DNA of 64,000 nt from a virus (lineage: Duplodnaviria; Heunggongvirae; Uroviricota; Caudoviricetes). Below the pieces are notes generated by a model. It had not been told where the DNA came from. It saw only the letters and a program-made list of their open reading frames with translations, and did no database searches. Shown in pieces: positions 9,542 through 31,646 of the stretch. The position numbers and the translations under genes were made by a program. Location: the IMG/VR virus record IMGVR_UViG_2565956719_000002. One strand, given 5' to 3'. Numbering within the stretch: the stretch's first letter is position 1; each line of letters opens with the position of its first letter.

Positions 9542-9842
9542 AATCGCAGCGCCATTAGGCGGAGATGCCATTATCGAATTTGATGATAATGAAGAAGTTT
9601 CCGGGCGTTTAAGCATTATCTCCGGTGACATTACCGAGGACATGATCGCTGAAGCCATAGCTGGGGCAAATCCCAATAGCTATATGGGATTCGTTAACAC
9701 CCTTGATGCTCCCGCAAGTGATGTTCTCCGAACGCTGCATCTTTACGCTGGCTGGTTTGTTGATTGGCCAGCAGTAGATGGTGGCGATGAGGACGACGAC
9801 GACGATGATTTTGGTGATCATGTAGACCAGATCGTATATTGA
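9531..9842 (+). CDS. Small acidic protein with poly-Asp tract
   Basis: 103 aa, AAGGAG upstream, start overlaps ddrB-like stop; C-terminal GGDEDDDDDDFGDH. Confidence 0.4.
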   Translation: MQIKIAAPLGGDAIIEFDDNEEVSGRLSIISGDITEDMIAEAIAGANPNSYMGFVNTLDAPASDVLRTLHLYAGWFVDWPAVDGGDEDDDDDDFGDHVDQIVY

Positions 9843-9845
9843 AGA

Positions 9846-9870
9846 AATCCCGCCAATTGGCGGGATTTTT
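9846..9870. terminator. Rho-independent terminator between convergent operons
   Basis: AATCCCGCCAATTGGCGGGATT hairpin followed by TTTTT. Confidence 0.7.
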
Positions 9871-9873
9871 ACC

Positions 9874-10968
9874 TCACGAGAAACTCTTTTCTGATGTCAG
9901 CCAACAGTGCTCGTGCATATCTCTTGGTGGTTTTTCGACAAATGCCTCTTCAGCCACATCCTGCCAGGGGATTTGTTTAGCCCATTCAGTTATAGCGTTA
10001 TGGTTTGCCGAGAATAACGGTATTGTATAGGCCTTCAGCCAGTCTAATGTGCTGGAGTTGTGTTTTTGAGCGTGATGTTTCGCATGGTGTTTGGCGATCA
10101 CGATCGTAGGCACTACCCATTTACTACCGTCAGTCATTGTGAAGTGCATATTACGGGGAACAGATGACTTTTCCATCAACTCCCGAATCCCTGGGAATTT
10201 CCCCAAGATCAATCGGCGATATTCATCGCTATTGCGCCCACCAAACTCTTTGGCTTTGAATTCAAGATATGCTTCAGAAACGAGAGGTGAATCCTCTGTG
10301 TTTAGAGTTATCGCCGTGAAAAAACCAGCAGGATTGTTTTTACTATGGGCCAACCGGTGATGCGAATCATAAAAGTACCCTTTCTCGCGTTCCGATGGTT
10401 TCGACAGCAACAGCAGGCGCGAGTCATAATTGGTTAAATTGCCAGTTATCACTGCATGAGCGCGATCGCTGATTTCCGCCGAGTTAATAACGATGAAAAG
10501 ATCGTGCGGTCCAGTAAAACCAGCCAGAGACTCTTCGTTATTCAGACAATAGGTTATATAGACGCATCCCCATGTTTCACTGATATGCACCAACCCTTTG
10601 TCAGGGTGTATTCTGAAATAATTGCCAAGAAAAGTGTGTTTTTGGGTAACTCGCTCCCAATAACGGAACATATAGTCAATTATTGTTTTTCGACAATCGT
10701 TAATCGCAGGAGAAACAACCACTGTACGGGAACACGAATACAGTATTGTTTGCAGGATGCTAATCACTGCCACAATAGAGGTTTCCCCAATACCATGTGG
10801 TGTGGTGGCAGTGATTTTGGCTCCGGTGTTCTTTATCGCGTTAATAATTTTTGCTTGATGAGGTGTTAACTCAATATCAAGCAACTCTTTTGCTGCCAGT
10901 TCCCAATTGTCTTTATACCGTTCTATCAGTGCTAACCAGGCAGATTCATTCTGTATACGATTAATCAC
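9874..10968 (-). CDS. Terminase large subunit (PacB) ATPase-domain paralog lacking the nuclease domain
   Basis: 364 aa; GYFYDSHHRLAHSKNNPAGFFTAITLNTEDSPLV matches [34 protein letters not shown] of the 494-aa PacB in this window; Walker-like TTPHGIGETS and DLFIVINSAE; C-terminus unrelated. Confidence 0.6.
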   Translation of the reverse strand: MINRIQNESAWLALIERYKDNWELAAKELLDIELTPHQAKIINAIKNTGAKITATTPHGIGETSIVAVISILQTILYSCSRTVVVSPAINDCRKTIIDYMFRYWERVTQKHTFLGNYFRIHPDKGLVHISETWGCVYITYCLNNEESLAGFTGPHDLFIVINSAEISDRAHAVITGNLTNYDSRLLLLSKPSEREKGYFYDSHHRLAHSKNNPAGFFTAITLNTEDSPLVSEAYLEFKAKEFGGRNSDEYRRLILGKFPGIRELMEKSSVPRNMHFTMTDGSKWVVPTIVIAKHHAKHHAQKHNSSTLDWLKAYTIPLFSANHNAITEWAKQIPWQDVAEEAFVEKPPRDMHEHCWLTSEKSFS

Positions 10969-23057: not shown

Positions 23058-23498
23058 ATGGCCACACTATCTGATACAATAAAACCGAATAAAACATATC
23101 TTGAGGCGGTACTCCGTACAGCGTTGTTAGGAAAGACAGAAGACGAATACGTTGATTTCTTCCTGTCAGGGCTACGCGGGCGATTACTGAAAAATCCCCG
23201 CCTGTACCGCAGCTATGGCCCATACTGGCCGGAAATTAAAAAATTATTACTGGAGCGCGGTTATGGTAATTTCGGTCGTCTCGTTGACCGTGACGTTCGC
23301 AAATTTTACCGTTATGACCGCCCGGCGCTAACACTCATAGCCGCGACGCTCTACAGCCAGGAGCGTTTTGATAATGGTCAGATATACTCAGCCTGGCATT
23401 TACTGCCAGTGCCTGAAGAAGTTGACGACCAGGACTATGAGTTTGAGTCTTACGATTTGGAAGTTGAAGCCTTGGCACAGGCTGGAGAGAAAACTTGA
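23058..23498 (+). CDS. Hypothetical protein (position of P1 ulx)
   Basis: 146-aa ORF directly after darB. Confidence 0.4.
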   Translation: MATLSDTIKPNKTYLEAVLRTALLGKTEDEYVDFFLSGLRGRLLKNPRLYRSYGPYWPEIKKLLLERGYGNFGRLVDRDVRKFYRYDRPALTLIAATLYSQERFDNGQIYSAWHLLPVPEEVDDQDYEFESYDLEVEALAQAGEKT

Positions 23499-23743
23499 AA
23501 AAGCGATACTACACAGTAAAGCATGGGACGCTACGAGCATTACAAGAGTTTGCTGACAAGCATAACGTTGAGGTGCGCAGGGAAGGGGGAAGTAAAGCTC
23601 TGCGCATGTACCGTCCGGACGGGAAATGGCGTACAGTCGTCGATTTCAAAACAAACAGTGTTCCCCAGGGCGTCCGCGACCGGGCATTCGAAGAATGGGA
23701 GCAGATCATCATAGATAACGCATTGCTCCTGAATGCTGATTAA
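23495..23743 (+). CDS. Small protein (position of P1 lxc, C1 co-repressor)
   Basis: 82-aa ORF overlapping previous stop; assignment by position only. Confidence 0.35.
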   Translation: MKKRYYTVKHGTLRALQEFADKHNVEVRREGGSKALRMYRPDGKWRTVVDFKTNSVPQGVRDRAFEEWEQIIIDNALLLNAD

Positions 23744-23756
23744 ACTTTCCGCCCTT

Positions 23757-23777
23757 TTGCCCGGTCTATCGCCGGGC
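23757..23777. terminator. Hairpin after the darB operon
   Basis: GCCCGG-TCTATCG-CCGGGC stem-loop with weak T-run. Confidence 0.35.
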
Positions 23778-23782
23778 ATCTT

Positions 23783-24424
23783 TCAGAGATAATTACCTTT
23801 ACCCGTCAATTCCCCTTGTGGTACTTGTTTTTGCGCCAGTGTTTGGGTTCCGCGAATTATGTTAATCAGAGGGCTTAGTAACGATGGTTCCTGGCGTGCC
23901 TCAACTTCTCCAGCCATTGCCCTGATGTAGTCGGCGCTGGCAACGTTGTTGTATTCCGTTGCGAAGCAGCATAACAACGTCAGAACATGCTCTGTCGTTA
24001 TTTCGCTCCAGTTGATGTTGAAAAATTCATCGCCTTTTTTATCGTGTTCGGAATCGAAGATGCTTTGGTGGAGGATGTATTTGCCGGATTCCTTGCGCGG
24101 TAACTTGATCGCTTTCTGGCGTTCCAGCTCCTTGTAAATCTGCATTGCTTCAATCAGTACCGGCCTGCCGTTCATGAAGGGATCGCGCAACCTTACACGC
24201 TGGCCAACTCGACCAGTAATAAAGCTGTTTTCCTCTTCCACCAGCACGATAAAACCCTTTTCCTCTTTTTCTCGCAATTCGCGCAGCAGCTGGAGTTCCA
24301 TATCGCGGCGGCGTTCAGGGTAGCTGGTCCGCTCAGCCATTATTAGCTCATTGTTGATCCATGCGGCAGTCATTGACGCCGGTTTGCCGACGCTCATCGA
24401 AACAACGCATATTTTCTTATCCAT
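23783..24424 (-). CDS. Hypothetical protein (accessory region)
   Basis: About 213 aa from ATG (MDKKICV) with AGGGG upstream; no recognisable motif. Confidence 0.5.
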   Translation of the reverse strand: MDKKICVVSMSVGKPASMTAAWINNELIMAERTSYPERRRDMELQLLRELREKEEKGFIVLVEEENSFITGRVGQRVRLRDPFMNGRPVLIEAMQIYKELERQKAIKLPRKESGKYILHQSIFDSEHDKKGDEFFNINWSEITTEHVLTLLCCFATEYNNVASADYIRAMAGEVEARQEPSLLSPLINIIRGTQTLAQKQVPQGELTGKGNYL

Positions 24425-24683
24425 AGCGCCCCTACAAAAAAGAAAAGCCACCAGCGGCGGCTTAGCAATACAACTGAAGGTAGCGCCCGGTACTCAGACT
24501 GTGCCGTCCATGGAATATTTGAAAAGGGATCCATCCGTACCGGGCGTGTGATGATTCTGACTCAAGTCACTTGTCAGTTGTCAATCATTTATCATTAAAA
24601 ATAATATATTTATTAGTGCATACAAATAAGACACTAAGTGTGCACATTGCAACCTCAGAGAGGAAACATTCAACCAGCCTGTA

Positions 24684-24700
24684 ATTGCTCTAATGAATTT
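24684..24700 (+). promoter_or_regulatory. C1-operator-like 17-mer upstream of antirepressor module A
   Basis: ATTGCTCTAATGAATTT, 16/17 to consensus; about 320 bp upstream of the coupled leader ORF. Confidence 0.5.
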
Positions 24701-24860
24701 GATTTTTTGGGGCGGAAATACTACCATTGTACGCCAGACTATTGATCTTCCTGTTGTTCAGGCTTATAGTTCCTACGTCGTAGCAAATTCTGCGACCGGG
24801 TTTGACAGCCTGAATGTACATGCGGACAACCGCAGATATCCGCATATTGCGGTATTTTTG
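24701..24860 (+). ncRNA. Candidate c4-like antisense RNA region of module A
   Basis: Elements 24724-24745 and 24925-24958 are roughly complementary to repeats at 24805-24838 and 24969-25009, the latter overlapping the leader-ORF ribosome-binding site; hairpin CCGCA-TAT-TGCGG plus T-run near 24839-24858. Confidence 0.3.
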
Positions 24861-25018
24861 TGTCCGTAAAACCACGTTACGCCCGAATTATGGTGGGGCG
24901 TGATGGGGAGGCTTCGGCCTGCTGGTTTCATGTACGCCAGTCTGTCAACCCCGTCACGTCCTGCCACCTGTTTGACAGCGGGTAGCAGGTTGTTAAACCT
25001 GTACATGAGGCCGTAACT

Positions 25019-25240
25019 ATGGTTAATGCCAATCCTTGCGCACGCCCTGAATTCATCTGGCGCTTTTACTCCTGCCAGAAACGTCACTATCACTTCGTTA
25101 TCGCACCAACAGAAGATGAGGCACGTTCTCAGCTTCCGGATGCTCCCTGTATTTTCTCTGCCCGCTTTTCTACCGATTTGCGCAATTCTCTCAGTTACTG
25201 GTGCCTCCCTGTTAACGCTTCTGCTCAGGAGGGGCTATGA
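25019..25240 (+). CDS. Leader protein coupled to antirepressor A (icd-like position)
   Basis: 73 codons, GAGG upstream, stop overlaps ant start (ATGA); inverted copy at 31086-31312 differs by 14 synonymous codon changes and one amino acid. Confidence 0.55.
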   Translation: MVNANPCARPEFIWRFYSCQKRHYHFVIAPTEDEARSQLPDAPCIFSARFSTDLRNSLSYWCLPVNASAQEGL

Positions 25241-26295
25241 GAACGTCATTAGTCACCCGTGAAGAGATGATCGAGGCAATTGAACAGCACACTGCCTGTA
25301 TCAGTACCAGGGATATACCTGGCGTTATTGCCAACTACTTCATGATCACCAAACAACTTTACCGGAGAAAGGACAAAAACGCGGTTCACCGCATTCTGCT
25401 GTCTGATATCCGTGAATACCTGCTCGAACAGGGGCATCTGAATTACGCAACCGTCGCAGCCGAAACACGCAAGGAGGCACACAGAATGAAAGCAAGCAAA
25501 CCAGATGTTGTCGTTACAAAGCCTTTGACAGCAACCACACCAGCAACGGCCATGGATGCTATCCCCAACACCGGAGACACAATCGACAGCCAGACGCTGT
25601 TAAAGATGGTCAATGAAGCGCGGAAATTATGTAGCGAAAAACCAGTTCGCAATAATGATTTTATTGCCAGAGTTAAGGATGAACTGGATGGTGAGTACTA
25701 CGAAATTTTCGTAGTGCAAAAATTAAACAACACAACATCTGAAACTATCTCCATGACCTACAAACAAGCCCTGCGAGTTGCCGCGCGCGAGTCAAAAGCG
25801 GTCCGCCGTTCGCTGATCGACAAACTGGAGGAATTGCAGCAGGCTAGCACTGCTTCTCCAGTGATTCCCCAAACACTCCCCGAAGCTCTGCGCCTGGCTG
25901 CCGAGCTGGCTGAACAAAAGCAACTTCTGGAACAGAAAGCCCACCAGCTAAATCAGCAGCTGGTGGCCGCCGCTCCTAAAGTCGATTTTGCCGACCGGGT
26001 ATCAGTAGCTAAAGGGATCCTGATTGGGAATTTTGCAAAGGTTGTTGGACTTAAGCAAAACGCGCTGTTTGCCTGGTTACGGGAGAACGGCATCCTGATA
26101 GCGTCCGGTGGACGTAAAAATGTGCCGTTCCAGCAATACATCAACGCTGGGTATTTTTCTGTGAAAGAAGTGGTGCTGGATGATGAAGATGGCTATCAGA
26201 TACGACTGACGCCCCAGTTAACGGGGAAAGGCCAGCAGTGGTTGACGCGTAAACTGCTCGATGCTGGCTTGTTAAAACCGGTGGCGGCTGAATGA
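25237..26295 (+). CDS. Antirepressor-like protein A (KilA-C-type C-terminus)
   Basis: 352 aa; C-terminal NFAKVVGLKQNALFAWLRENGIL...PFQQYINAGYF typical of phage antirepressor C-domains; N- and C-termini near-identical to copy B, middle unrelated. Confidence 0.7.
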   Translation: MRTSLVTREEMIEAIEQHTACISTRDIPGVIANYFMITKQLYRRKDKNAVHRILLSDIREYLLEQGHLNYATVAAETRKEAHRMKASKPDVVVTKPLTATTPATAMDAIPNTGDTIDSQTLLKMVNEARKLCSEKPVRNNDFIARVKDELDGEYYEIFVVQKLNNTTSETISMTYKQALRVAARESKAVRRSLIDKLEELQQASTASPVIPQTLPEALRLAAELAEQKQLLEQKAHQLNQQLVAAAPKVDFADRVSVAKGILIGNFAKVVGLKQNALFAWLRENGILIASGGRKNVPFQQYINAGYFSVKEVVLDDEDGYQIRLTPQLTGKGQQWLTRKLLDAGLLKPVAAE

Positions 26296-26321
26296 TTAAA
26301 AAAGGCGGCCTTGCGGCCGCC
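26296..26321. terminator. Hairpin terminator (A-run plus GGCGGCC-TTGC-GGCCGCC)
   Basis: Perfect 7-bp stem; read on minus strand it is followed by a T-run. Confidence 0.5.
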
Positions 26322-26542
26322 AATGATGTCACGGAGTCTATAATGGCAATGTGAATGTCTTCGTAGTTGACTAAAGCCACAACTCAATTATAACAATTAA
26401 TTATAGCAATGGTGGCTATTTTATTTATCGCGAATCACATTTTTTCTCTTCAGTACCTGTGTGCTATACTCCTTCTTGATTGATTGGATGCGGAATACAA
26501 ACCCGCTCTTTTGTGCAGCCTGGCTCCTTGCCAGGCTTTTTT

Positions 26543-26854
26543 TTATTTCATCATGGAAGCTGTTAACGCTTTGGACCTTGCTGAACTGATTGAAAGGGCA
26601 TTGTTTACCTTACCCAGGAGTTCGCCAAATTCCCCCATCACTCTAGTAAGCCCGCGCCGCGCTTCCTCCTCCGTTGCATTCATCACAAAATGTTCAGCAC
26701 TCCGCATGCTTTTAACGGGGAACGCAACAGATATCGAGTCGATATCAGGCATCCTATCGCTCAACTTTACGGTGACAATGACAGATGGTGACAGAATATT
26801 AGTGCTTACAGACAGCACTACATATTTTCCGTCGATGTTGAAATCCTTTCTCAT
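26543..26854 (-). CDS. Hypothetical protein downstream of cre
   Basis: 103-aa ORF preceded on minus strand by an operator-like box. Confidence 0.45.
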   Translation of the reverse strand: MRKDFNIDGKYVVLSVSTNILSPSVIVTVKLSDRMPDIDSISVAFPVKSMRSAEHFVMNATEEEARRGLTRVMGEFGELLGKVNNALSISSARSKALTASMMK

Positions 26855-26870
26855 ATGTCACCATAAATAT

Positions 26871-26887
26871 CAAAGAATTAGAGCAAT
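26871..26887 (-). promoter_or_regulatory. C1-operator-like box
   Basis: Core TTAGAGCAAT exact, 13/17 overall. Confidence 0.4.
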
Positions 26888-26904
26888 CATTTGCGCGTTA
26901 ATGG

Positions 26905-29941: not shown

Positions 29942-29944
29942 ATT

Positions 29945-29970
29945 ATGCCCGGCATCAACCGGGCATTCTT
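29945..29970. terminator. Bidirectional terminator between convergent c1 and antirepressor B
   Basis: GCCCGG-CATCAA-CCGGGC hairpin with flanking T-rich runs on both strands. Confidence 0.6.
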
Positions 29971-29973
29971 CCA

Positions 29974-31089
29974 TTATTCAGCCGCCACCGGTTTTAACAA
30001 GCCAGCATCGAGCAGTTTACGCGTCAACCACTGCTGGCCTTTACCCGTTAATTGAGGCGTCAACCGTATCTGGTAGCCATCTTCATCATCCAGCACCACT
30101 TCTTTCACCGTGAAATACCCCGCGTTGATGTACTGCTGGAACGGCACATTTTTACGTCCACCGGACGCTATCAGGATGCCGTTCTCCCGTAACCAGGCAA
30201 ACAGCGCATTTTGTTTAAGTCCAACGACCTTTGCAAAATTCCCAATCAGGATCCCTTTAGCTACTGATACCCGGTCGGCAAAATCGACTTTAGGAGCGGC
30301 GGCCACCAGCTGCTGATTTAGCTGGTGGGCTTTCTGTTCCAGAAGCTGCTTTTGTTCAGCCAGTTCGGCAGCCAGGCGCAGAGCTTCTGGAAGCGTCTGG
30401 GGGATTGCAACCGGTTGCTGTTCTTTTTGCCGGAAGTAGCTGTCTTCCAGTTTTTCAAAGAATGCCCATGCCTGATCGGTTTCGAGCATTTTAGCGTGGC
30501 GGGCTGCGCCGCGTTCCGTCCAGAGGATGAGTGAGCGGGCTTTAGGAGAGATAGGATTTTGTGAGTTACTTAAAGTCACCCGCAAATTGTTCAAATCATC
30601 TCCAATAACTTTATAGAAATGCTTACCTTCACAAAAACGTTCAGCATTACGGGAAAAGTTCTTCTTGATGTTATCCGCATCTGTCCCATACCCCTTAGCA
30701 AGGATCTTAGTTGTCACTACACGCACTCCCTGCCACTCTAGAACGGGAATTTCATCCGGCTGACTTTGAACAACCACCAGTTCTGATTCCTGAACTAAAG
30801 GTGTATTAATTTTTTCAGATTTAACGTTAGTAGCTTTCATTCTGTGTGCCTCCTTGCGTGTTTCGGCTGCGACGGTTGCGTAATTCAGATGCCCCTGTTC
30901 GAGCAGGTATTCACGGATATCAGACAGCAGGATACGGTGAACAGCGTTCTTGTCCTTTCTCCGGTAAAGTTGTTTGGTGATCATGAAGTAGTTGGCAATA
31001 ACGCCTGGTATATCCCTGGTACTGATACAGGCAGTGTGCTGTTCAATTGCCTCGATCATCTCTTCACGGGTAACTAACGATGTTCTCAT
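29974..31089 (-). CDS. Antirepressor-like protein B (Bro-N-type central domain plus KilA-C-type C-terminus)
   Basis: 371 aa; central VLEWQGVRVVTTKILAKGYGTDADNIKKNFSRNAERFCEGKHFYKV Bro-N-like; first 86 and last about 143 residues near-identical to copy A. Confidence 0.75.
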   Translation of the reverse strand: MRTSLVTREEMIEAIEQHTACISTRDIPGVIANYFMITKQLYRRKDKNAVHRILLSDIREYLLEQGHLNYATVAAETRKEAHRMKATNVKSEKINTPLVQESELVVVQSQPDEIPVLEWQGVRVVTTKILAKGYGTDADNIKKNFSRNAERFCEGKHFYKVIGDDLNNLRVTLSNSQNPISPKARSLILWTERGAARHAKMLETDQAWAFFEKLEDSYFRQKEQQPVAIPQTLPEALRLAAELAEQKQLLEQKAHQLNQQLVAAAPKVDFADRVSVAKGILIGNFAKVVGLKQNALFAWLRENGILIASGGRKNVPFQQYINAGYFTVKEVVLDDEDGYQIRLTPQLTGKGQQWLTRKLLDAGLLKPVAAE

Positions 31090-31312
31090 AGTCCCTCCTG
31101 AGCAGAAGCGTTAACAGGGAGGCACCAGTAACTGAGAGAATTGCGTGAATCAGTGGAAAAACGGGCAGAGAAAATACATGGGGCGTCAGGAAGCTGAGAG
31201 CGGGCCTCATCTTCTGTCGGTGCAATAACGAAGTGATAGTGACGTTTTTGGCAGGAGTAAAAGCGCCAGATAAATACAGGATGAGTTGGGGTAGGGATAG
31301 TAGCCATATTGG
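31086..31312 (-). CDS. Leader protein coupled to antirepressor B (icd-like position)
   Basis: ATG with GGAGG upstream; 62 C-terminal codons conserved with copy A; stop overlaps ant start. Confidence 0.5.
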
Positions 31313-31472
31313 CAGCCTCCTTAGACGTTGGTATGTAACCACCGCAGAAGAGACCAATCTTGCTGGCGGTGGACTGTACGGAGTTGGCCTTACTGGCGTC
31401 CAAGGTAACCAGCCTACCCGAAGGTAGCCCCATACAGCCCACCATTGTAGAGGTGTGCGTGTACGCCGATAC

Positions 31473-31495
31473 AAAAAAAAGACGCGAGCGGCGTC
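31473..31495 (-). terminator. Hairpin plus T8 on minus strand (pacB terminator and/or 3-prime end of a c4-like RNA)
   Basis: GACGCCGCTCGCGTC followed by TTTTTTTT on minus strand. Confidence 0.6.
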
Positions 31496-31626
31496 TGTAT
31501 CGCCTTAGACTTAAGCGGGAGGCCAATCCCGGCACCCGTTTTAATGAGGTGCCTGATAAGCATAAACCGAAAATGCCTCAAGGCGCAAGAGGTCAGGTTC
31601 AATGTAACATCGGCAGTCAAAAAACA
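31496..31626 (-). ncRNA. Candidate c4-like antisense RNA region of module B
   Basis: Contains ATTGGCCTCCC, complementary with a 2-nt bulge to the GGAGGCTGCCAAT ribosome-binding region of the leader ORF; lies between operator-like box and hairpin. Confidence 0.3.
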
Positions 31627-31643
31627 CAATTTATTAGAGCAAG
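31627..31643 (-). promoter_or_regulatory. C1-operator-like 17-mer upstream of antirepressor module B
   Basis: Minus strand CTTGCTCTAATAAATTG, 15/17; about 315 bp upstream of leader ORF B. Confidence 0.45.
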
Positions 31644-31646
31644 ATT

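What the first reader, a model, noticed from the sequence alone, without database searches (positions are those of the whole stretch)
23783..26904. Accessory segment between the darB operon and cre
Between the 82-aa gene after darB and cre the window carries a 213-aa protein with no recognisable motif, antirepressor module A, and a 103-aa operator-preceded gene. As I recall the P1 map, this position holds ref, mat and the type III res/mod genes, none of which is present. The slot therefore looks like a cargo-exchange hotspot.
Basis: partly seen in the sequence, partly recalled or inferred. Interest (0 to 1): 0.5.

Follow-up and report, generated by a model that had tools for sequence, protein, structure and literature searches.

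The report
P1 backbone with swapped antirepressor cassette
This stretch of a P1-like phage-plasmid is mostly ordinary backbone (the genes mat and c8): a known defence-gene slot is empty here, and the ref gene is replaced by an extra copy of the phage's RNA-controlled antirepressor switch, which carries its own recognition code.

Summary
The window is a P1-like phage-plasmid. The "213-aa protein" is Mat (about 95% identical to P1 Mat) and the 103-aa gene is c8 (93%). Both are backbone, present in every relative that reaches them. What differs from P1 is two things.

1. The 6.3-kb res/mod interval is replaced by a 39-bp spacer with one hairpin, between the convergent stop codons of mat and lxc. 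Relatives fill this slot with at least 12 alternative cargos, mostly defence candidates. It is empty in 10 of 74 loci. It is the published hot-spot RD-1.

2. The ref coding sequence is replaced, almost to the base, by a 1,676-bp immI-type cassette. It has a C1 operator, a promoter, the a1/b1 target, C4 antisense RNA, the a2/b2 target, icd and ant. This state occurs in 9 of 73 IMG/VR loci and about 49 PLSDB plasmids, including pO111_2.

Its C4 loop (CAUGUAC) differs from P1 and P7, with matching changes in both targets. I predict a third immunity specificity.

Verdict: a real, largely known architecture. The hotspot idea is half right. Interest is modest.

The parts
23495..23743 (+). lxc (82 aa), the C1 co-repressor. 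It forms the conserved outer flank of slot 1.
   Evidence: 98% nucleotide identity to P1 darB-ulx-lxc. P1 annotation. phrog_2160.
23744..23782 (.). Empty slot 1: a 39-bp spacer between the convergent stop codons of lxc and mat. It holds one hairpin (GCCCGG-N7-CCGGGC, 23759-23777). P1 carries res, mod and IS5 (6.3 kb) at this position.
   Evidence: The blastn breakpoints against P1 bracket this spacer. I read the sequence directly. The same empty junction occurs in 31 of 701 PLSDB records and 10 of 74 IMG/VR loci.
23783..24424 (-). mat, maturation control protein (213 aa from the ATG; the ORF extends to a GTG at 24451). Backbone gene.
   Evidence: Aligns to P1 Mat residues 38-250 with few substitutions. 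phrog_1837, E = 4e-113. RefSeq names the equivalent ORF 'maturation control protein'. No Pfam or PDB match.
24554..24621 (-). mat control region carried over from P1: the late promoter LPmat/Pmat (about 24554-24585, by projection) and the weak C1 operator Omat (24604-24621). The left breakpoint of the cassette falls exactly at the end of Omat.
   Evidence: Projection of the P1 annotation through the blastn alignment. Sequence comparison...TATTTATTAGTGCAT| is identical to P1 up to the break.
24622..26297 (+). immI-type antirepressor cassette ('module A'), 1,676 bp, occupying the place of the P1 ref coding sequence.
   Evidence: The gap in the P1 alignment corresponds to L001 9796-10354, that is ref 9787-10347. 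About 79% nucleotide identity to P1/P7 immI.
24684..24700 (+). C1 operator of the cassette (ATTGCTCTAATGAATTT, 1 mismatch to the consensus). It aligns with Op(c4) of P7.
   Evidence: The consensus is quoted from PMC8546580.
24742..24770 (+). Sigma-70-like promoter (TTGATC, 17-nt spacer, TATAGT). It aligns with the same promoter-like element of P1 and P7 immI.
   Evidence: This is a consensus match only.
24764..24816 (+). Upstream a1/b1 target of C4 (...TTTGACAGCCTGAATGTACATG...).
   Evidence: Rfam RF03163, 54.5 bits against a threshold of 46.7. The alleles are complementary to the C4 loop.
24886..24971 (+). C4 antisense RNA gene. Loop b' is UCAUGUAC and a' is CUGUCAA.
   Evidence: Rfam RF01695, 70.7 bits against a threshold of 45, full length. 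Alignment with P1 and P7.
24972..25010 (+). Downstream a2/b2 target: a2 is TTGACAG (24972-24978) and b2 is GTACATGA (25001-25008). b2 overlaps the icd Shine-Dalgarno sequence GAGG (25007-25010).
   Evidence: I read the sequence directly; it is the exact complement of a'/b'.
25019..25240 (+). icd (73 aa). Its stop codon overlaps the ant start codon (ATGA).
   Evidence: phrog_1426, E = 5e-46. RefSeq names it 'host cell division inhibitor Icd-like'.
25237..26295 (+). ant (352 aa), a full-length Ant1 homologue. It has an internal Ant2-type start at M84 (25486) preceded by AAGGAGG.
   Evidence: 73-77% amino-acid identity to P1 and P7 Ant1. Pfam ANT/KilAC. phrog_63. Internal start context.
26298..26542 (-). 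Orphaned ref leader. It holds the attenuator hairpin GGCGGCC-N4-GGCCGCC plus a T-run (26304-26321), the Oref-like operator (26394-26410) with P2ref by projection, and a plus-strand terminator-like hairpin (26517-26537) just before the c8 stop codon.
   Evidence: The attenuator interpretation rests only on the title of Windle et al. 1988, as listed in the references of PMC10695390.
26543..26854 (-). c8 (103 aa), putative lysogeny-establishment gene. Backbone gene.
   Evidence: 93% amino-acid identity to P1 C8. phrog_1968. Present in all 73 loci that reach it.

Best explanation
The interval is P1 backbone (lxc, mat, c8, cre) interrupted at two recombination points.

Slot 1 is the gap between the convergent stop codons of mat and lxc. 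Relatives keep single-gene or two-gene defence cargos there, each with its own terminator hairpin. Here it is empty.

In slot 2 the ref ORF has been exchanged for a self-contained paralogue of the P1 immI operon. By analogy with P1 and P7 immI, I infer that the cassette works as follows:
1. In the lysogen, C1 bound at the cassette's operator lowers transcription.
2. Residual transcripts yield C4 RNA.
3. The a' and b' loops of C4 pair with a2/b2 on the same mRNA and cover the icd ribosome-binding site.
4. icd is therefore not translated, and the translationally coupled ant is not made.
5. When C4 is limiting, or does not match, Icd and Ant1/Ant2 are made, and Ant inactivates C1.

The b' loop (CAUGUAC) and both of its targets differ from P1 and P7. 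The cassette should therefore answer only to its own C4. In that case it adds one more immunity specificity. In trans, it would silence incoming phages that carry the same allele. On infection, it would provide an antirepressor that a resident lacking this allele cannot silence.

Exchange at both slots most likely happens by homologous recombination in the near-identical flanking genes.

Shown: the anatomy, the homology, the distribution among relatives, and the three-way complementarity. Inferred: expression, antirepression, orthogonality, and the recombination route.
For: Anatomy:
- Breakpoints against P1.
- Rfam C4 and c4-a1b1 above threshold.
- A 1-mismatch operator, against 0.31 operator matches expected by chance in the whole window.
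- A promoter aligned with P1 and P7.
- Ant 73-77% identical to Ant1, with a conserved internal start.

Integrity: all 10 ref-slot cassettes (the window plus 9 IMG/VR loci) have an intact icd and an intact ant. In all 10, a1b1, C4 and a2b2 match perfectly, across three allele combinations.

Specificity:
- P1 and P7 C4 differ, apart from one stem base, only in these two loop elements, and module A carries a third b allele.
- Among 119 further IMG/VR C4 loci there are 7 loop alleles, each seen with a' allele CT, TC or both. Every target that was recovered is the exact reverse complement of its loop.
- In 5 of 5 contigs with two P1/P7-type C4 genes, the loop alleles differ.

Additional rather than relocated: pO111_2 has the same layout and also keeps the canonical kilA-adjacent immI.

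Slots:
- 12 cargo classes plus an empty state in slot 1.
- Slot 1 boundaries fall at the stop codons, with no repeats.
- The ref-slot state assorts with 6 different slot-1 states in 9 loci.

The mechanism of c4/icd/ant comes from PMC8198154, PMC8546580 and PMC12197685. I also draw from memory on Citron & Schuster 1990/1992 and Heinrich et al. 1994, which I could not read here.
Against: - There is no expression or functional data.
- The a' element is identical to P1's, and the b' mismatch to the P1 target is 2 mismatches plus 1 G-U wobble in 8 bp. Partial cross-talk with P1-type C4 cannot be excluded.
- Whole-RNA duplex energies did not discriminate between alleles.
- The canonical immI position of this genome lies outside the window, so 'additional' is inferred from relatives.
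- The CAUGUAC allele is not confined to accessory slots: 2 of 15 copies sit next to kilA.
Confidence: 0.7

Rival explanations
1. The whole lxc-to-cre interval is one accessory cargo island that replaced ref, mat, res and mod.
For: ref, res and mod are absent from the window. Pfam finds nothing in the 213-aa and 103-aa proteins.
Against: The 213-aa protein is Mat and the 103-aa protein is C8, at 93-96% identity to P1. c8 is upstream of mat in all 73 Mat-bearing loci that reach that far. Variation is confined to two discrete points on either side of mat.
Confidence: 0.03
2. Module A is the element's only immI operon, moved from its usual place beside kilA/repL. It is not an added specificity.
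For: The canonical immI position lies outside the 64-kb window, so its presence cannot be checked. Cassettes with the same C4 allele do occur next to kilA in 2 of 15 cases, so they do move between sites.
Against: The window already holds a second cassette, module B, between c1 and pacB. pO111_2 has the same slot layout and keeps a P7-type immI beside kilA in addition. Most PLSDB and RefSeq hits with this layout show 3 to 4 matching places per record.
Confidence: 0.1
3. Module A is a decaying, functionless duplicate left by a past recombination event.
For: ant, icd and c4 are individually non-essential for P1 lytic growth in a CRISPRi screen (PMC10695390). There is no expression evidence here.
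Against: icd and ant ORFs are intact in 10 of 10 ref-slot cassettes. Compensatory changes are kept in three separate elements (a1b1, the C4 loop, a2b2) across different alleles. The operator, promoter, internal Ant2 start and its ribosome-binding site are all conserved.
Confidence: 0.08
4. The cassettes and the slot-1 cargos are inserted by a dedicated site-specific or transpositional mechanism, not by homologous recombination in the flanks.
For: The boundaries are strikingly precise. They fall at stop codons (slot 1 and c1|pacB), at the edge of Omat, and at the ref attenuator hairpin. Module B begins exactly at a C1 operator, 3 nt from the pacB stop codon.
Against: No direct or inverted terminal repeats, target duplications or associated recombinase genes were seen at any boundary. 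The break inside the 3' end of mat varies from 0 to 124 nt between cargo classes, as expected for crossovers within homologous flanks. The flanks are 95-100% identical among relatives.
Confidence: 0.09

Closest known systems
immI operon of phages P1 and P7 (c4 antisense RNA, icd, ant1/ant2)
   Same: The parts and their order match: C1 operator, promoter, a1/b1, C4 RNA, a2/b2 overlapping the icd ribosome-binding site, icd coupled to ant, and a nested Ant2 start. Nucleotide identity is about 79%, and Ant is 73-77% identical.
   Different: It sits in the ref position between mat and c8, not beside kilA/repL. Its b' loop and both targets carry a third allele: CAUGUAC, against CACUAAC in P1 and CACAAUC in P7. 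Its a' allele is the P1 one. It is probably one of two or three such cassettes in the same genome.
pO111_2 of E. coli O111:H- 11128 (NC_013370) and about 48 other PLSDB P1-like plasmids
   Same: pO111_2 has an identical architecture: an empty lxc|mat junction, an immI-type cassette with the ATGTAC/TC allele in place of ref, and a second cassette between c1 and pacB.
   Different: Identity to the window is about 96% and no record matches it exactly. In pO111_2 the c1|pacB cassette is interrupted by IS1203. Most of the other plasmids carry a cargo (SIR2, PIN, MBL/DUF2971 or GNAT) in slot 1.
Hot-spot RD-1 (the res-mod region) of P1-like plasmids, Venturini et al. 2019 (PMC6906374)
   Same: It is the same position, P1 3,469-9,749 between mat and lxc. 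The paper describes it as a variable hot-spot. It also notes icd-ant homologues in RD-1 of pSvP1, an insertion between c8 and mat in pJIE250-3, and an ant gene between pacB and c1.
   Different: The paper compared three plasmids. It did not describe the empty state, the defence-type cargo spectrum, the precise ref-for-immI replacement, or the C4 alleles.
Gifsy-1 isrK-orf45-anrP locus (Hershko-Shalev et al. 2016, as summarised in PMC12197685)
   Same: This comparison concerns only the neighbouring module B. That module has an Rfam isrK match (60.8 bits) upstream of a small ORF coupled to an antirepressor gene.
   Different: Module B also carries a C4-family RNA (75.9 bits) and a C1 operator. 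It lies outside the finding's coordinates.

Membership tests
P1/P7 immI operon | C1-controlled operator upstream of the operon | tested here: met
   24684-24700, 1 mismatch to ATTGCTCTAATAAATTT. It aligns with the annotated P7 Op(c4).
P1/P7 immI operon | C4 antisense RNA with the family's secondary structure | tested here: met
   Rfam RF01695, 70.7 bits against a gathering score of 45, model positions 1-87.
P1/P7 immI operon | Two target sets (a1/b1 upstream, a2/b2 downstream) complementary to the a'/b' loops, with b2 at the icd ribosome-binding site | tested here: met
   RF03163, 54.5 bits against 46.7. Exact complementarity at both target sets. b2 (25001-25008) overlaps GAGG (25007-25010), 8 nt before the icd ATG.
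P1/P7 immI operon | icd ORF translationally coupled to ant1, with ant2 nested in frame | tested here: met
   The icd stop and ant start overlap at 25237-25240. Ant is 73-77% identical to Ant1. M84 is preceded by AAGGAGG.
P1/P7 immI operon | Canonical genomic position next to kilA-repL | tested here: not met
   The cassette lies between mat and c8, in place of ref. It is a paralogue in a non-canonical slot.
P1/P7 immI operon | Ant inactivates C1, and C4 represses ant in trans with allele specificity | not testable with these tools
   This needs genetics or biochemistry. Only sequence complementarity could be assessed.
Variable cargo hot-spot RD-1 (mat|lxc) | Conserved flanks with alternative, unrelated contents among relatives | tested here: met
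   12 cargo classes plus an empty state in 74 loci. The flanks are 95-100% identical.
Variable cargo hot-spot RD-1 (mat|lxc) | Cargo present at this position in this window | tested here: not met
   Only a 39-bp spacer (23744-23782) separates the two stop codons.
Variable cargo hot-spot RD-1 (mat|lxc) | Contents are anti-phage defence genes | tested here: inconclusive
   PADLOC and Pfam matches are to SIR2/ThsA-like, PDC-S33 (RelA_SpoT, CapRel-like), PDC-S31 (DUF2971), PDC-S34 (PIN), JukA, and EcoP1I res/mod. GNAT, YaaC and the lipoprotein find no PADLOC match. Only CapRel of SJ46 and EcoP1I are experimentally established, and that statement rests on the literature.
P1 Mat (maturation control) | Sequence identity and synteny with P1 mat, including its control region | tested here: met
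   96% nucleotide identity over 23814-24621, including LPmat and Omat. The protein alignment covers P1 Mat 38-250.
P1 C8 | Sequence identity and position directly downstream of cre | tested here: met
   93% amino-acid identity, and the same position.
P1 Ref (RecA-dependent nuclease) | A ref ORF present | tested here: not met
   No tblastn match at E <= 1 in the whole window. Only the ref leader remains.
EcoP1I type III restriction-modification | res and mod present | tested here: not met
   No tblastn match for Res and no blastn match for the P1 res-mod interval in the window.

The most novel reading that the evidence does not exclude
P1-like phage-plasmids stack several mutually orthogonal C4/Ant 'locks'. 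They sit at the canonical immI site, the ref slot, the c1|pacB slot and occasionally slot 1. Their specificities come from a combinatorial code of at least 7 b'-loop alleles and 2 a' alleles. Each added cassette would act as a shield, because its C4 silences the matching ant of incoming relatives. It would also act as a weapon, because its Ant is one that a resident lacking that C4 cannot silence. The ref-slot cassette of this window would then be one move in an immunity arms race among co-circulating P1-like elements.
Probability: 0.4. Interest if true: 0.55.

Novelty: new member of a known kind. Interest (0 to 1): 0.3.

Why it matters
For annotation, the segment should be read as lxc, an empty defence slot, mat, an immI-type cassette in place of ref, c8 and cre. 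It should not be read as unknown cargo.

For biology, two points may be useful.

- The gap between mat and lxc is a compact exchange point bounded by the two stop codons. It carries many single-gene defence candidates, including a CapRel-like gene on a contig of SJ46 length. That makes it a convenient place to look for new defence genes in P1-like plasmids.
- C4 and its targets form a small, readable specificity code, with compensatory changes at three sites. Genomes can hold more than one allele. If the alleles are truly orthogonal, superinfection immunity between P1-like plasmids could be predicted from sequence. The cassettes could also serve as a set of orthogonal antisense switches.

None of this changes what is known about how immI works.

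Tried and rejected
- **Mat structure prediction.** The AlphaFold2 single-sequence model of Mat had mean pLDDT 41.7 and pTM 0.31. It is unusable, so I ran no fold search.
- **C8 structure.** No prediction was run for C8.
- **PDB sequence search with Mat.** No match at E <= 1.
- **Pfam on Mat, Icd, C8, Ulx, Lxc and Cra.** Nothing found.
- **Whole-RNA duplex energies between C4 and targets of different alleles.** These did not discriminate, because stem sequences dominate the score. My loop-restricted version failed on a regular-expression error. I relied on explicit base-by-base complementarity instead.
- **First regular expressions for the C4 alleles.** They missed everything or missed the downstream targets. 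Both were fixed.
- **Primary literature.** Lobocka 2004, Citron & Schuster 1992, Heinrich 1994 and Gilcrease & Casjens 2018 are not held in the library. Statements about a'/b' function therefore rest on secondary sources and on memory.
- **Inversion between modules A and B.** I looked for an inverted c8-cre-lox-c1 segment. None was seen in 73 loci.
- **Base composition.** There is no anomaly: 0.41-0.52 GC across all parts, against 0.489 for the window.
I had recorded that the pO111_2 ref-slot ant is degraded. The ORF is intact, and the PLSDB gene table is simply incomplete.


Full report
**What the window is.** The region matches phage P1 and many P1-like phage-plasmids. A blastn comparison with P1 (NC_005856 1-12423, reverse complement, locus L001) gives three collinear blocks.
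- Window 21070-23750 matches P1 from the end of darB through ulx to lxc, at 98.4%.
- Window 23814-24621 matches P1 mat and its control region, at 96%.
- Window 26298-28371 matches P1 from 8 bp upstream of the ref start codon through c8, cre and cra to lox, at 95.9%.

**Checking the observation.** The ORFs exist as described. Their identities are as follows.
- The 213-aa ORF (23783-24424, minus strand) is Mat. It aligns with P1 Mat residues 38-250 with a handful of substitutions. It matches phrog_1837 at E = 4e-113. RefSeq calls the same ORF 'maturation control protein' in relatives.
- The 103-aa ORF (26543-26854, minus strand) is C8, at 93% identity to P1 C8.
- Neither protein has a Pfam domain, which explains 'no recognisable motif'.
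- Ref, Res and the whole P1 res-mod interval find no match anywhere in the 64 kb.
It lies downstream of c8 and belonged to the missing ref gene.
- C1-operator-like sites are far above chance in the window: 15 found against 0.31 expected.

**Difference 1: an empty slot.** P1 has 6.3 kb of res, mod and IS5 here. The window has 39 bp (23744-23782) between the convergent stop codons of lxc and mat, holding one GC-rich hairpin.

I fetched 80 IMG/VR loci that encode Mat and located the flanking genes in each. Among 74 loci that have both mat and lxc:
- 10 have the same empty junction;
- 64 carry one of at least 12 unrelated inserts of 0.7-5.1 kb.

Representatives of these inserts match the following families:
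- SIR2_2 / ThsA-like / PDC-S25;
- RelA_SpoT / PDC-S33, which is CapRel-like (one such locus is a 103,445-bp contig, the length of phage SJ46);
- EcoP1I res/mod;
- DUF2971 / PDC-S31;
- PIN_12 / PDC-S34;
- GNAT;
- JukA plus an HTH protein plus another immI-type cassette;
- a YaaC-like protein with a deoxyribosyltransferase-like protein;
- a lipoprotein.

Each cargo ends with its own hairpin directly at the lxc stop codon. On the other side the break falls 0-124 nt inside the 3' end of mat. I saw no terminal repeats. In PLSDB the empty junction occurs in 31 of 701 records that match either flank.

This slot is the published hot-spot RD-1 (Venturini et al. 2019, PMC6906374). CapRel of SJ46 is an experimentally characterised defence protein (PMC9712102).

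**Difference 2: ref replaced by an immI-type cassette.** Window 24622-26297 (1,676 bp) has no counterpart at this place in P1, and it occupies exactly the ref ORF.
- The left break is at the last base of the weak operator Omat.
- The right break is at the hairpin-plus-T-run 8 bp upstream of the ref ATG.

The cassette contains, in order:
- a C1 operator with 1 mismatch (24684-24700);
- a promoter-like TTGATC, 17-nt spacer, TATAGT that aligns with P1 and P7;
- the a1/b1 target (Rfam RF03163, 54.5 bits);
- C4 RNA (RF01695, 70.7 bits);
- the a2/b2 target overlapping the icd Shine-Dalgarno sequence;
- icd (73 aa);
- an overlapping ant (352 aa), 73-77% identical to P1 and P7 Ant1, with the Ant2-type internal start M84 behind AAGGAGG.

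The orphaned ref promoter, operator and attenuator remain at 26298-26542 and now point at the 3' end of ant.

Among 73 loci with both c8 and mat, 64 have ref and 9 have a cassette, never both. In PLSDB, ref is essentially complete in 515 records, and the Omat-cassette junction occurs in 49. In RefSeq, 65 of 5,426 complete E. coli genomes hold at least 80% of the 9-kb region. No record matches the window exactly.

pO111_2 (NC_013370) has the same layout, including the empty slot 1. The ref-slot state occurs with six different slot-1 states in nine loci. The two slots therefore reassort across the 0.64-kb mat gene.

**What the cassette most likely does.** In P1 and P7, C1 and the trans-acting C4 RNA together keep the antirepressor Ant1/Ant2 off. 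C4 pairs with the mRNA around a ribosome-binding site. P1/P7 heteroimmunity depends on this system (PMC8198154, PMC8546580, PMC12197685).

In the alignment of the control regions, P1 and P7 C4 differ in two loop elements plus a single stem base (C versus U in the 3' half, CCCTG versus CCCCG).
- b': P1 CACUAAC, P7 CACAAUC.
- a': P1 CUGUC, P7 CUGCU.
- Both target sets carry matching changes.

Module A has the P1 a' allele and a third b' allele, CAUGUAC. The complement, GTACATG, is present in both a1b1 and a2b2.

All ten ref-slot cassettes examined have intact icd and ant and perfectly matched triplets, across three allele combinations.

I then scanned IMG/VR with the conserved C4 flanks. The loop 6-mer alleles were:

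| Loop allele | Count | Note |
|---|---|---|
| ACAATC | 40 | P7 type |
| ACTAAC | 24 | P1 type |
| GTAAGT | 22 | |
| ATTCGT | 15 | |
| ATGTAC | 15 | module A type |
| ACAAGT | 2 | |
| TTGAAC | 1 | |

The five commoner alleles occur with both a' alleles; ACAAGT was seen only with TC and TTGAAC only with CT. Every target that could be recovered is the exact reverse complement of its loop.

The ATGTAC allele sits mostly in the ref slot:
- 9 copies in the ref slot;
- 2 at the canonical kilA-adjacent site;
- 1 at c1|pacB;
- 1 elsewhere;
- 2 in truncated loci.

In five of five contigs with two P1/P7-type C4 genes, the loop alleles differ. I therefore predict that module A is a functional extra immunity specificity. 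This is inference from sequence. The shared a element leaves room for cross-talk with P1-type C4.

**Context outside the finding.** A second cassette, module B (29942-31646, minus strand), lies between the convergent stop codons of c1 and pacB.
- It has a C1 operator, an isrK-like leader, a divergent C4, an icd-like ORF, and a 371-aa Ant with an ORF6N middle domain.
- It shares 448 bp and 433 bp, at 94-95% identity, with module A in inverted orientation.
- That site is empty in 34 of 58 loci and filled in 24.
- pO111_2 shows that such genomes can hold three cassettes, the third being the canonical immI beside kilA/repL. In this window that position is out of range.

**Comparison with what is known, and verdict.** Everything here belongs to known kinds:
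- P1 backbone genes;
- the published RD-1 hot-spot, in its empty state;
- a paralogue of the immI operon.

The ref-for-immI layout already exists in deposited sequences, pO111_2 among them. Related insertions were noted by Venturini et al..

In the papers I could search I did not find three things described:
- the precise ref replacement;
- the defence-type spectrum of slot 1;
- the multi-allele C4 code, with different alleles in the same genome.

These are modest comparative observations that fit expectations for immunity regions. Its inventory is partly wrong: mat and c8 are present and are backbone.

Interest is 0.3. I class the finding as a new member of a known kind.

Noticed in passing
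window 29942-31646 (minus strand): A second immI-type cassette ('module B') lies between the convergent stop codons of c1 and pacB. It has a C1 operator (31627-31643), an Rfam isrK-like leader (31475-31552), a divergent C4 (31362-31449), an icd-like ORF, and a 371-aa Ant with an ORF6N middle domain. Among 58 IMG/VR loci this site is empty in 34 and filled in 24.
   Followed up: partly
window 25046-25493 / 30833-31280 and 25864-26296 / 29973-30405: Modules A and B form inverted repeats (448 bp at 94% and 433 bp at 95%) that bracket c8-cre-cra-lox-coi-c1. Recombination between them would invert the immC/cre segment and swap the Ant middle domains. No inverted arrangement was seen in 73 related loci.
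   Followed up: partly
window 26298-26542: The ref promoter, operator (Oref-like, 26394-26410) and attenuator hairpin (26304-26321) survive without ref. They now face the 3' end of ant. Whether they drive antisense transcription into ant after C1 inactivation is unknown.
   Followed up: no
L087-L205 (IMG/VR loci found with the C4 pattern): At least 7 C4 loop alleles occur; the five commoner ones are seen with both a' alleles. Both mRNA targets always carry compensatory changes. In 5 of 5 contigs with two such C4 genes the loop alleles differ.
   Followed up: partly
L040, L042, L043 (slot 1, between mat and lxc): In three loci the mat|lxc slot itself holds an immI-type cassette (loop allele GTAAGT) together with an HTH protein and a JukA-like protein. 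L040 therefore has cassettes on both sides of mat.
   Followed up: partly
L029-L039 (slot 1), for example L030: One slot-1 cargo class is a 376-aa RelA_SpoT / PDC-S33 protein. L030 is a 103,445-bp contig, the length of Salmonella phage SJ46, so this is probably the native position of CapRel-SJ46. I did not check sequence identity to the published protein.
   Followed up: no
L007-L086, c8 gene: c8 occurs as two nucleotide allele groups, about 87-91% and 94-100% identical to the window's copy. The groups assort independently of the ref/cassette state.
   Followed up: no
window 23783-24451: The annotated P1 Mat (250 aa) has a 37-residue N-terminal extension that is not conserved here. The window's ORF, and RefSeq annotations of relatives, start at the MDKKICVV methionine (213 aa). 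This suggests that the P1 start codon is annotated too far upstream.
   Followed up: no
window 59020-59092, 60899-60971, 60977-61049 (minus strand): There are three tRNA genes, as expected for a P1-like genome.
   Followed up: no
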